Shown: one piece after another, positions 36,001-36,515 of the stretch | How positions within the stretch are numbered: the stretch's first letter is position 1 | Layout: each line of letters opens with the position of its first letter | Made by a program: the position numbers | NCBI GenBank assembly: GCA_035451285.1 | Contig: DAOTOJ010000002.1 | Location: 7,817-71,816 of the forward strand | DNA length: 64,000 nucleotides | Direction of reading: 5' to 3' | From: Minisyncoccota bacterium | GTDB taxonomy: Bacteria; Patescibacteriota; Minisyncoccia; UBA6257; Brennerbacteraceae

Positions 36001-36515
36001 ACGCTTTAAAACCGACCAGATAAAAAAATTTATCTTTAAAGAAATCATCCATCCCCAGCTTCCGCTAGGGATGCCTTGTTACGACTTCACCCCTGTTACC
36101 GAGCCTAAGTTCGTCCCTAAAAGGGCCTTCACTTATTCCCGGCTCCCTTGGCGTGACGGGCGGTGAGTACAGGACTCGAGAACGTATTCAACGCGCCATG
36201 GCTGATACGCGTTTACTAGCGATTCCAGCTTCATGGAGTCGGGTTTCAGACTCCAATCCGAACTGAGGTATATTTTTAGGGATTAGCTCCGCCTCGCGGC
36301 TTAGCAACCCGTTGTGTATACCATTGTTTCATGAGTGTCGCCCAGGACATCAAAGGGCCATGCTGATTTGGCGTCATCCTCGCTTCCACCCCGCCCCAAA
36401 CCAACAAAATTTCATAATTTAAATTTTGCAAGCTTAGGGCGGGGTAGTCTTGTTTGACACAAAAACAAACAACGAGGGTTGCGCTCGTTTCCCCACTGAA
36501 GGGAACGCCTCACGG

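What the first reader, a model, noticed from the sequence alone, without database searches (positions are those of the whole stretch)
36037..36060. 16S rRNA 3' tail lacks the anti-Shine-Dalgarno core (CCUCC to UUUCU), matching the near-absence of SD sequences genome-wide
In the sense orientation the 16S ends ...GGGGATGGATGATTTCTTTAAAG, where E. coli has ...GGTTGGATCACCTCCTTA. Helix 45 and the 1492 region align cleanly, so the alignment register is secure. Three of the five anti-SD cytosines are replaced by U. Consistent with this, I found no GGAGG-type SD upstream of about 15 inspected core gene starts. Only the GC-shifted, probably acquired genes at 955, 20208 and 20478 have perfect AAGGAGG. 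This suggests SD-independent initiation. It may also be a built-in barrier that limits expression of horizontally acquired, SD-dependent genes, or a specificity shift toward A-rich motifs (AAAGAAA is complementary to the new tail and occurs upstream of the gene starting at 4345).
Basis: seen in the sequence. Interest (0 to 1): 0.6.

Follow-up and report, generated by a model that had tools for sequence, protein, structure and literature searches.

The report
16S rRNA without anti-Shine-Dalgarno sequence
This AT-rich Parcubacteria (candidate phyla radiation) bacterium has lost the 16S rRNA sequence that normally pairs with ribosome-binding sites, and its genes lack such sites, a real condition that is already documented for this bacterial group.

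Summary
The only 16S rRNA gene in the window (36037-37588, minus strand) is full length. It ends in GGAUGAUUUCUUUA where the bacterial consensus has GGAUCACCUCCUUA, so the anti-SD core CCUCC has become UUUCU. Six independent assemblies carry the identical tail.

Only 3 of 60 curated gene starts have an SD. Those three genes are the strongest GC3 outliers in the window. Start regions are about 85% A+U, have the least predicted structure, and carry U at -1 in 41 of 60 genes.

I found no enrichment of motifs complementary to the new tail, so the "specificity shift" idea is not supported. The "barrier to acquired genes" idea could not be tested.

Protein homologs and a rough 16S tree place the organism in Parcubacteria, next to many species whose tails are even more decayed, including the cultured Minisyncoccus archaeiphilus. 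CPR relatives that keep a canonical anti-SD also lack SDs. The anti-SD loss therefore looks like late, neutral decay in a lineage that was already SD-independent.

This state is published for Parcubacteria (Tsurumaki 2022; PLoS One 2024), so this is a new member of a known kind.

A side finding may be newer. The prfB +1 frameshift site is retained, but its usual SD-like stimulator is replaced by a conserved GC-rich element.

The parts
36037..37588 (-). 16S rRNA gene. It is full length, the only SSU gene in the window, and not linked to a 23S or 5S gene.
   Evidence: Rfam RF00177, 1374.7 bits, model positions 1-1533. No LSU or 5S match anywhere in the 64 kb.
36050..36073 (-). Helix 45 (CAUCCCUAGC-GGAA-GCUGGGGAUG). 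It is intact and fixes the alignment register of the tail.
   Evidence: In the cmscan structure line all 10 pairs are standard base pairs.
36037..36049 (-). Unpaired 3' tail GAUGAUUUCUUUA. The anti-SD core equivalent is UUUCU at 36044..36040, replacing CCUCC.
   Evidence: Column-for-column cmscan alignment to GAUcACCUCCUUu. The tail is identical in six assemblies.
35947..35974 (-). 3' arm of a long leader/trailer stem flanking the 16S, probably the precursor processing stem (coordinates approximate). It begins about 63 nt after the modelled 3' end.
   Evidence: RNAduplex of the two flanks gives -40.9 kcal/mol, including a perfect 28-bp run. No CCUCC lies between helix 45 and this arm.
37596..37623 (-). 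5' arm of the same leader/trailer stem (coordinates approximate). A TTGACA-N17-TATTAT promoter-like site lies further upstream.
   Evidence: duplex result and printed flank sequence.
2..966 (-). SD-bearing gene 1. It encodes a lipoprotein-like polysaccharide deacetylase, starts at 955, has AGGAGG at 961-966, and runs off the window.
   Evidence: Upstream AAGGAGGATAAG-ATG. Pfam PF01522, E 5.3e-07. GC3 is 0.396, z about +4.2.
19945..20610 (-). SD-bearing cassette next to the 3' end of tRNA-Glu. It contains a promoter-like TATAAT, a 10-codon mini-ORF (20565..20533), an 85-aa ORF (20478..20221), a 72-aa ORF (20208..19990) and a terminator hairpin. Each ORF has AGGAGG 5-6 nt upstream.
   Evidence: Sequence and AGGAGG sites. 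GC3 is 0.33-0.34. The context is the same in 24 contigs. No Pfam, PHROG or PADLOC hit.
25221..26352 (-). prfB (RF2) with a retained +1 programmed frameshift: CUU 26283-26281, UGA 26280-26278, C 26277. Where the SD-like stimulator normally sits there is a GC-rich element, UCCGC-UCUUGG-GCGGA (26303..26288), 4 nt upstream of CUU.
   Evidence: Sequence and ORFs. SD-using comparators have GGAGG or GGGGG 3-4 nt upstream of CUUUGA. The element is conserved in L248, L253 and L254 and uses rare codons.

Best explanation
The window comes from an AT-rich (about 29% GC) member of the Parcubacteria, part of the candidate phyla radiation (Patescibacteria). Its 16S rRNA has lost the anti-Shine-Dalgarno sequence by C-to-U decay. 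The ribosome therefore cannot use SD:anti-SD pairing, and the genes do not offer it. I infer that start codons are selected by SD-independent features: a strongly A+U-rich, G/C-poor and weakly structured region around the AUG, a preferred U at -1 and A-rich -7..-2, and possibly leaderless or very short leaders for some operon-first genes. CPR relatives that still have CCUCC also lack SDs. The most likely history is therefore that SD use was abandoned first, and the unconstrained tail then drifted toward A/U under the genome's AT pressure. The few genes with perfect SDs are compositional outliers. Their SDs are best read as leftovers from acquired DNA rather than working signals. Shown here: the tail sequence, its reproducibility, the absence of SDs, the absence of a replacement motif, the low structure at starts, and the lineage context. 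Inferred: the initiation mechanism, the order of events, and the origin of the SD-bearing genes.
For: The tail is confirmed and reproducible. Only 3 of 60 starts have an SD, and the upstream hybridisation energy is at shuffle level. Upstream composition is A 0.466, U 0.385, G 0.088, C 0.061. A is 50-62% at -7..-2 and U is 68% at -1, binomial p 3.6e-06. Start-centred 40-nt windows fold at -1.77 kcal/mol against -3.18 for internal windows, Wilcoxon p 4.4e-06. No motif complementary to the new tail is enriched. Nearest named homologs are Brennerbacteria, Azambacteria, Yanofskybacteria, Paceibacteria and Minisyncoccia. In a rough NJ tree built with the tail excluded, the 16S groups with six decayed-tail Patescibacteria loci. 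A capped scan of species-representative genomes returned 119 loci. Most were Patescibacteria with tails such as CAUUUUUU, CAUUUAUU and CAAUUAUU, including Minisyncoccus archaeiphilus PMX.108. A canonical-tail CPR locus, L156, has 10 ribosomal-protein-operon genes without any SD. Pooled low-GC canonical-tail loci show no G-rich peak and 83% U at -1. As an internal control, the prfB frameshift site lacks the otherwise highly conserved SD-like element. Published precedent: PMC9297842, PMC10783764, PMC7782861.
Against: Only 64 kb of one genome was examined. A second rRNA operon with a canonical tail elsewhere in the genome is not formally excluded, although the metagenome scan for the same helix 45 with a different tail found nothing closer than about 76% over long overlaps. 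Gene starts were chosen by rule, not measured. The mature 16S 3' end is unknown. The comparison with relatives used crude ORF calls, which work poorly at high GC. The NJ tree uses p-distances at about 75% identity and is weak. The leaderless signal (a -10-like box 4-8 nt upstream of ATG in 9 of 29 promoter-like sites) could be a by-product of AT richness. bS1, bS21, IF3 and uL1 are not in the window, so ribosome composition is unknown.
Confidence: 0.8

Rival explanations
1. Specificity shift. The new tail (3'-AUUUCUUUAGUAG-5') pairs with a co-evolved A-rich ribosome-binding motif such as AAAGAAAUC upstream of start codons.
For: AAAGAAA lies upstream of the gene at 4345. A few genes give -4.5 to -7.2 kcal/mol with the real tail. 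[quoted passage not shown]
Against: Mean pairing energy with the real tail is weaker than in shuffled upstream regions (-2.02 vs -2.23, z +1.17) and weaker than at internal ATGs (-2.99). Four of 60 genes have a perfect complement of 6 nt or more against 4.94 expected (P 0.755), and AAAGAAA occurs upstream of only 2 of 60 genes. Tails in related lineages differ widely and drift toward pure A/U, which looks like decay rather than a conserved new pairing partner.
Confidence: 0.05
2. Adaptive barrier. Loss of the anti-SD was selected because it prevents efficient expression of SD-dependent foreign genes from phages, plasmids or horizontally transferred DNA.
For: The only perfect SDs precede compositionally foreign genes. 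Minisyncoccus, which also lacks the anti-SD, likewise has an isolated gene with AAAAAGGAGGATATT-ATG.
Against: Relatives with an intact anti-SD already lack SDs, so anti-SD loss is not needed to explain SD-less native genes. The SD-bearing cassette is fixed in one context across 24 contigs with intact ORFs, which suggests it is expressed and retained. Tail sequences vary freely among lineages, as expected for neutral decay. Nothing here measures expression.
Confidence: 0.08
3. Artefact or non-functional copy. The tail is an assembly error, or this is a pseudogene, and the working 16S lies elsewhere with a normal anti-SD.
For: Only part of the genome was seen. The data come from metagenome assemblies.
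Against: The gene is a full-length, high-scoring SSU match with intact helices 44 and 45. It has a promoter-like site and a 28-bp processing stem. The tail is identical in six assemblies from different samples. The metagenome scan found no near-identical 16S with another tail. The absence of SDs in the mRNAs, including at prfB, is independent and consistent evidence.
Confidence: 0.03

Closest known systems
Parcubacteria subgroup lacking the anti-SD motif (Tsurumaki et al. 2022, RNA 28:1041, PMC9297842)
   Same: Both are CPR/Parcubacteria lineages whose 16S 3' end lacks CCUCCU. The paper detects the motif in only 48% of Parcubacteria and concludes that SD helices probably do not form. My genome scan reproduces this with dozens of Patescibacteria tails.
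   Different: This organism is a deep branch: about 77% 16S identity to the nearest locus found, and 46-57% protein identity to the nearest homologs outside its own genus (a sister species is 87-91% identical). Its tail (GAUUUCUUU) is less decayed than the common CAUUUUUU and CAUUUAUU types. The paper links the loss to uL1 absence, which cannot be checked here. It did not analyse mRNA start regions.
[quoted passage not shown]
   Same: Both features are combined: no CCUCC and few SDs. The listed examples include Candidatus Campbellbacteria and Candidatus Wolfebacteria, which are Parcubacteria lineages, as well as SR1, Flavobacteriia and insect endosymbionts.
   Different: That survey used complete genomes and a thermodynamic cut-off of 5.5% of mRNAs. 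Here only 60 genes were scored, and 3 of 60 (5%) have an SD.
Bacteroidia, e.g. Flavobacterium johnsoniae (PMC6847099, PMC10798248)
   Same: mRNAs naturally lack SDs. Initiation is tuned by low structure and by A-rich 'Kozak-like' positions upstream of the AUG (abstract).
   Different: Bacteroidia keep the anti-SD, which is sequestered on the 30S platform, and keep the SD in the prfB frameshift site (abstract). Here the anti-SD is mutated and the prfB SD is gone. The canonical-tail CPR relatives (L156 and others) resemble the Bacteroidia state more closely.
Reduced endosymbionts with a degenerate anti-SD, such as Carsonella, Zinderia, Hodgkinia and Nasuia (Lim 2012 and Amin 2018 as cited in PMC7782861; Nikolaeva 2021)
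   Same: Small AT-rich genomes in which the anti-SD has decayed recurrently. Zinderia appeared in my scan with the tail UACAUUUU.
   Different: These are unrelated phyla and intracellular insect symbionts. In this organism the loss sits inside a large environmental radiation.

Membership tests
Anti-SD-less, SD-scarce Parcubacteria | The 16S 3' tail lacks the CCUCC(U) motif | tested here: met
   The tail is GGAUGAUUUCUUUA against the consensus GGAUCACCUCCUUU. No CCUCC, CUCC or CCUC occurs in the trailer.
Anti-SD-less, SD-scarce Parcubacteria | SD motifs are rare upstream of start codons | tested here: met
   Three of 60 starts have an SD. Hybridisation energy is at shuffle level. AGGAGG is not enriched: 15 observed against 18.45 expected.
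Anti-SD-less, SD-scarce Parcubacteria | Phylogenetic placement in Parcubacteria (Paceibacteria / Minisyncoccia) | tested here: met
   The best named homologs of LepA, RF2 and the sigma-like protein are Brennerbacteria, Azambacteria, Yanofskybacteria, Paceibacteria and Parcubacteria group. The rough NJ 16S tree groups the window with decayed-tail Patescibacteria loci. The window also encodes type IV pilin-like proteins, which I recall as typical of CPR. No formal GTDB placement was possible.
Anti-SD-less, SD-scarce Parcubacteria | Co-occurrence with loss of ribosomal protein uL1 (association reported by Tsurumaki 2022) | not testable with these tools
   rplJ-rplL (44967..44011) follows an L10 leader and two tRNAs rather than rplK-rplA, but uL1 could be encoded outside the window.
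Bacteroidia-type SD-independent translation (anti-SD retained but sequestered) | The CCUCC anti-SD is conserved in the 16S | tested here: not met
Bacteroidia-type SD-independent translation (anti-SD retained but sequestered) | An A-rich, weakly structured start region replaces the SD | tested here: met
   A is 50-62% at -7..-2. Predicted structure is at its minimum at the start codon.
Co-evolved alternative SD:anti-SD pair | A motif complementary to the variant tail is enriched upstream of starts | tested here: not met
   z +1.17. Four genes observed against 4.94 expected.
Leaderless-mRNA-dominated translation | A -10 promoter box sits about 6-8 nt upstream of the start codon of operon-first genes | tested here: inconclusive
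   Nine of 29 promoter-like sites end 4-8 nt before the ATG, and the rest end 10-90 nt before it. No TSS data exist, and the AT-rich background inflates matches.

The most novel reading that the evidence does not exclude
In this anti-SD-less lineage the autoregulatory +1 frameshift of prfB has survived the loss of SD:anti-SD pairing. The 'hyper-conserved' SD-like stimulator has been replaced by a different cis element, UCCGC-N6-GCGGA-C-YGG, placed 4 nt upstream of CUU UGA C. This element may be a small mRNA hairpin that takes the place of the SD:anti-SD helix. It is identical in stem and spacing in four sequences from genomes of 30-54% GC, and in the window it is built from rare codons. If this is right, it would be a natural example of an intramolecular helix substituting for the rRNA-mRNA helix in recoding. 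It would also be independent functional evidence that these ribosomes do not use their 3' tail.
Probability: 0.2. Interest if true: 0.6.

Novelty: new member of a known kind. Interest (0 to 1): 0.3.

Why it matters
The result gives one more well-documented case in which a free-living-type environmental bacterium has dispensed with the textbook SD:anti-SD interaction. Automated start-site prediction and RBS-based expression design should not assume SDs for this clade. The comparison with canonical-tail relatives suggests an order of events, SD use lost first and anti-SD decay second, that parallels the Bacteroidia. This order could be tested across the CPR. Minisyncoccus archaeiphilus is cultured and also has a decayed tail, so initiation without an anti-SD, the U(-1)AUG context and the SD-less prfB frameshift could in principle be studied experimentally. 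As a finding in itself it is not surprising to a specialist, because the state is already published for Parcubacteria.

Tried and rejected
1. I tried to reach 16S genes of relatives through synteny with the flanking sigma-like gene. Homologs at 41-45% identity (P0004, P0007, P0014) are not next to a 16S, so this gave nothing.
2. The metagenome scan for this organism's helix 45 with a non-G base after GGAU returned 112 loci, but all were distant (about 70-76% over long overlaps) and most had canonical tails. It was useful as a control but found no close relative. The 16S of the sister species (87-91% protein identity) could not be retrieved, so conservation of the tail within the genus is unknown.
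4. The pooled comparison of SD frequency by tail type gave 11.9% against 13.5%, which is uninformative. My ORF caller mis-places starts in GC-rich DNA, so I rely only on low-GC loci and on L156 read by eye.
5. The SD-bearing cassette has no match in phage records, PHROGs, PADLOC or Pfam. Its nearest homolog lies beside dnaA in a 45% GC genome, where it is also a low-GC outlier. This hints at mobility but gives no donor.
6. The release-factor genes next to 16S in 11 relatives' loci turned out to be RF1, not RF2.
7. A viral-contig scan for the prfB element found nothing.
8. Folding z-scores for the prfB hairpin are only -1.0 to -1.3, and there is no covariation, so the structure itself is not demonstrated.

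Full report
**What is at the coordinates.** Rfam's bacterial SSU model matches window 36037..37588 on the minus strand across its whole length (model positions 1-1533, 1374.7 bits). I re-ran the search on the 3' 300 nt with alignments shown. Helix 44 is shortened at its tip, as is usual in CPR bacteria. The 1492 region and helix 45 are intact and pair properly. The 13-nt unpaired tail aligns column for column: GAUGAUUUCUUUA against the consensus GAUcACCUCCUUu. The anti-SD core CCUCC is therefore UUUCU, at 36044..36040.

**Reproducibility and flanks.** The gene has a TTGACA-N17-TATTAT promoter-like site upstream. It is bracketed by a leader/trailer duplex with a perfect 28-bp run (-40.9 kcal/mol), which is the usual look of a 16S precursor processing stem. 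Between helix 45 and the next gene there is no CCUCC, CUCC or CCUC. Wherever the mature 3' end lies, no canonical anti-SD is available. The window has no 23S or 5S gene, so the 16S is unlinked.

**The mRNA side.** I built a set of 60 gene starts, using the longest ORF and moving to a nearby ATG where the first start codon was GTG or TTG.
A fourth perfect SD precedes a 10-codon mini-ORF in the same cassette as the last two.
- AGGAGG is not enriched in the window: 15 occurrences against 18.45 expected.
- RNAduplex energies between -20..-1 and the canonical tail average -1.81 kcal/mol. Shuffled upstream regions give -1.59 (z -1.36, driven entirely by the three genes), and internal ATG controls give -3.29.
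- Upstream regions are 85% A+U with only 8.8% G. A is 50-62% at -7..-2, and U is 68% at -1 (41 of 60, binomial p 3.6e-06).
- Forty-nucleotide windows centred on the start codon have the least predicted structure: -1.77 against -3.18 kcal/mol for internal windows (Wilcoxon p 4.4e-06).

These are the standard signatures of SD-independent initiation.

- Specificity shift. If the new tail had acquired a new partner, complementary motifs should be enriched upstream. They are not. Pairing with the real tail averages -2.02 kcal/mol against -2.23 in shuffles (z +1.17). Four of 60 genes have a perfect complement of 6 nt or more against 4.94 expected. AAAGAAA occurs upstream of only 2 genes. I reject the specificity-shift idea.
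- Acquired SD-bearing genes. The three SD-bearing genes are the top GC3 outliers, at 0.396, 0.329 and 0.337 against 0.203 +/- 0.046. This fits foreign origin.
- The cassette. It has a promoter-like box, a mini-ORF, an 85-aa ORF, a 72-aa ORF and a terminator. It sits immediately beside the 3' end of tRNA-Glu and is in the same place in all 24 contigs read. It has no Pfam, PHROG, PADLOC or phage match.
- The deacetylase. Its family is small. Its one named homolog is from a Patescibacteria bacterium. Its closest homolog lies beside dnaA in a 45% GC genome, where it is also a low-GC outlier.
- Verdict. "Acquired" is plausible but no donor is shown. Whether the missing anti-SD acts as a barrier to such genes cannot be tested from sequence.

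**Who this is.** Pilin-like proteins with the GFTLIELL signature are encoded here, and dense code-11 ORFs fit a CPR bacterium. The RNase P RNA only just reaches its Rfam threshold.
- Protein homologs. Named best hits of the sigma-like protein, LepA and RF2 are Brennerbacteria, Azambacteria, Yanofskybacteria, Portnoybacteria, Paceibacteria, Minisyncoccia and Parcubacteria group. Identity is only 46-65% beyond a sister species at 87-91%. This is a deep branch of Parcubacteria.
- Genome scan. One scan of 185,579 species-representative genomes looked for 16S 3' ends with a non-C at the second anti-SD position. Most are labelled Patescibacteria, Paceibacterota, Staskawicz-, Lipton-, Yanofsky-, Nealson-, Niyogi-, Jorgensen- or Terrybacteria.
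- Tails found. They have decayed to CAUUUUUU (21), CAUUUAUU (19), CAAUUAUU (9), CAAUUAAU (7) and similar. They include the cultured Minisyncoccus archaeiphilus PMX.108 and Candidatus Microsyncoccus archaeolyticus.
- 16S placement. The window's 16S is 72-78% identical to these loci. In a rough NJ tree built without the tail, it groups with six decayed-tail loci inside a larger, mostly decayed clade.

**Order of events.** A metagenome scan for this organism's helix 45 followed by a different tail returned 112 loci. All are distant, so none is a second operon of this organism, and 95 carry CACCUCCUU.
- One of them, L156, contains ten genes of the tuf-S10-L3-L4-L23-L2-S19-L22-S3 ribosomal-protein region. 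Not one has an SD, and all ten have U at -1.
- Pooled low-GC canonical-tail loci (118 genes) show 6-14% G at every position from -12 to -2, and 83% U at -1. Decayed-tail loci (308 genes) show the same flat profile, with 57% U at -1.
- SD-independent initiation is therefore wider than anti-SD loss. The simplest reading is that the anti-SD became dispensable first and then decayed toward A/U in several lineages.
- The variety of tail sequences argues for drift rather than a new function.
- These pooled figures rest on crude ORF calls and should be taken as indicative. The caller works on SD-using loci such as L251 (5 of 7) but poorly at high GC.

**How initiation most likely works (inferred).** The evidence supports open, A/U-rich start regions. 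I suggest from memory that U(-1) could add a fourth base pair with A37 of the initiator tRNA. That was not tested here. Promoter-like -35/-10 pairs end 4-8 nt before the ATG in 9 of 29 cases (for example the genes at 2106, 4555, 30547, 34056, 34711 and 55323). In the others they end 10-90 nt before it. Some operon-first genes may therefore be leaderless, but in 29% GC DNA this is inconclusive without TSS data.

**What is already known.**
- Tsurumaki et al. 2022 report that the CCTCCT motif is detected in only 48% of Parcubacteria. The lineages lacking it overlap the group lacking uL1, and the authors conclude that SD helices probably do not form. bS21 is also often absent.
- Nikolaeva et al. 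describe recurrent anti-SD loss in tiny genomes.

The finding is thus a correct, well-supported new example of a published state. In the window, rplJ-rplL follows an L10 leader and two tRNAs rather than rplK-rplA. Absence of uL1 cannot be judged from 64 kb.

**A side finding that bears on function.** prfB (25221..26352, minus strand) keeps the classical +1 frameshift site CUU UGA C.
- SD-using comparators. In three such organisms the site is preceded by GGAGGUUAU, GGGAGGAUAU or AGGGGGUUAU (L249, L250, L252). A 12,753-genome survey calls this SD-like element "hyper-conserved".
- The window. The site reads UUCCGCUCUUGGGCGGACUGG|CUUUGAC. It pairs poorly with the canonical tail (-5.7 kcal/mol) and hardly at all with the real one (-1.5).
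- Conservation. The same element, UCCGC-N6-GCGGA-C-YGG, recurs in the sister species and in two relatives with RF2 60-64% identical, 50-54% GC, and (in L254) the same prfB-ftsE-ftsX order.
- Nucleotide-level constraint. In the window the element is built from rare codons: CGC is 5.6% of Arg, GCG 5.6% of Ala and GAC 13.9% of Asp. One relative changes Trp to Arg while keeping NGG. Together these point to constraint on the nucleotides rather than the protein.
- Structure. RNAalifold predicts an invariant 5-bp stem but there is no covariation. Folding z-scores are weak, at -1.0 to -1.3.
- Literature context. Upstream hairpins have been reported to mimic the internal SD duplex and stimulate +1 frameshifting (abstract of PMC6321510). 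Many of the nearest RF2 homologs are full length, meaning they have lost the frameshift.
- Reading. I treat this as independent evidence that the 3' tail is not used for SD pairing, and as a lead worth following, not as a demonstrated mechanism. The anti-SD state of the two relatives is unknown.

**Verdict.** SD-independent initiation is supported. The specificity shift is rejected and the barrier idea is untested. Novelty is "new member of a known kind". Interest is modest at 0.3. The most novel reading still open is the SD-less prfB frameshift element (probability about 0.2).

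Noticed in passing
window 26277-26303 (-); also L248:1058-1084, L253:1075-1101, L254:1384-1410: The prfB +1 frameshift site CUU UGA C is retained, but the usual SD-like stimulator is replaced by a conserved GC-rich element, UCCGC-N6-GCGGA-C-YGG, 4 nt upstream. 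The element is built from rare codons. The sister species has CUC UGA C at the slippery codon.
   Followed up: partly
window 19945-20610 (-), beside tRNA-Glu 19852-19925 (+): A small cassette contains a 10-codon mini-ORF, an 85-aa ORF and a 72-aa ORF, each with a perfect AGGAGG, plus a terminator hairpin. Its GC3 is 0.33-0.34 against 0.20 for the window. It sits in the same context in 24 contigs and has no family or phage match. Its function is unknown.
   Followed up: partly
window, position -1 of 60 gene starts; loci L131-L242 and L012-L130: U immediately before the AUG is strongly preferred: 68% in the window, 83% in canonical-tail low-GC CPR loci and 57% in decayed-tail loci. This may be a lineage-wide start context that is independent of anti-SD state.
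   Followed up: partly
L156 (metagenome contig Ga0076113_114), 1300-8300: A CPR-like organism with a canonical CACCUCCUU 16S tail has a ribosomal-protein operon of 10 genes, none with an SD. SD-less initiation therefore occurs with an intact anti-SD as well.
   Followed up: partly
L027 (Minisyncoccus archaeiphilus PMX.108, NZ_AP038758.1 1144001-1152000), minus strand of the locus, ORF start at position 157 counted on the reverse complement: Although this organism has a decayed 16S tail (CAUUUAUU), one 313-aa gene is preceded by AAAAAGGAGGATATT-ATG. This is almost the same RBS string as the window gene at 20208.
   Followed up: no
window 36037-37588 and flanks 35947-35974 / 37596-37623: The 16S is unlinked from 23S and 5S, with none in the 64 kb. 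It lies between a sigma-like/HARE-HTH gene and a response-regulator gene and is bracketed by a perfect 28-bp leader/trailer stem.
   Followed up: partly
window 44011-45320 (-): rplJ-rplL, with an L10 leader (RF00557), is preceded by tRNA-Gly and tRNA-Thr rather than rplK-rplA, and is followed by tRNA-Val and ychF rather than rpoB. This is relevant to the reported link between anti-SD loss and uL1 loss, but it is not decisive.
   Followed up: no
window 50578-50936 (-): The RNase P RNA scores 101.6 bits against a gathering threshold of 100, so it is a divergent class A RNA that only just passes.
   Followed up: no
window starts at 2106, 4555, 30547, 34056, 34711, 21960, 55244, 55323 and 4345: -10-like hexamers, with -35-like partners, end only 4-8 nt before the ATG. 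This suggests leaderless or near-leaderless transcripts for some operon-first genes.
   Followed up: partly
L251 5001-6280 (JGI Ga0265295_1002647): The closest homolog of the SD-bearing deacetylase lies directly after dnaA and is followed by a 53-aa DnaA C-terminal fragment. Its GC is lower than its neighbours' (0.39 vs 0.46-0.49), which hints that the gene is mobile.
   Followed up: no
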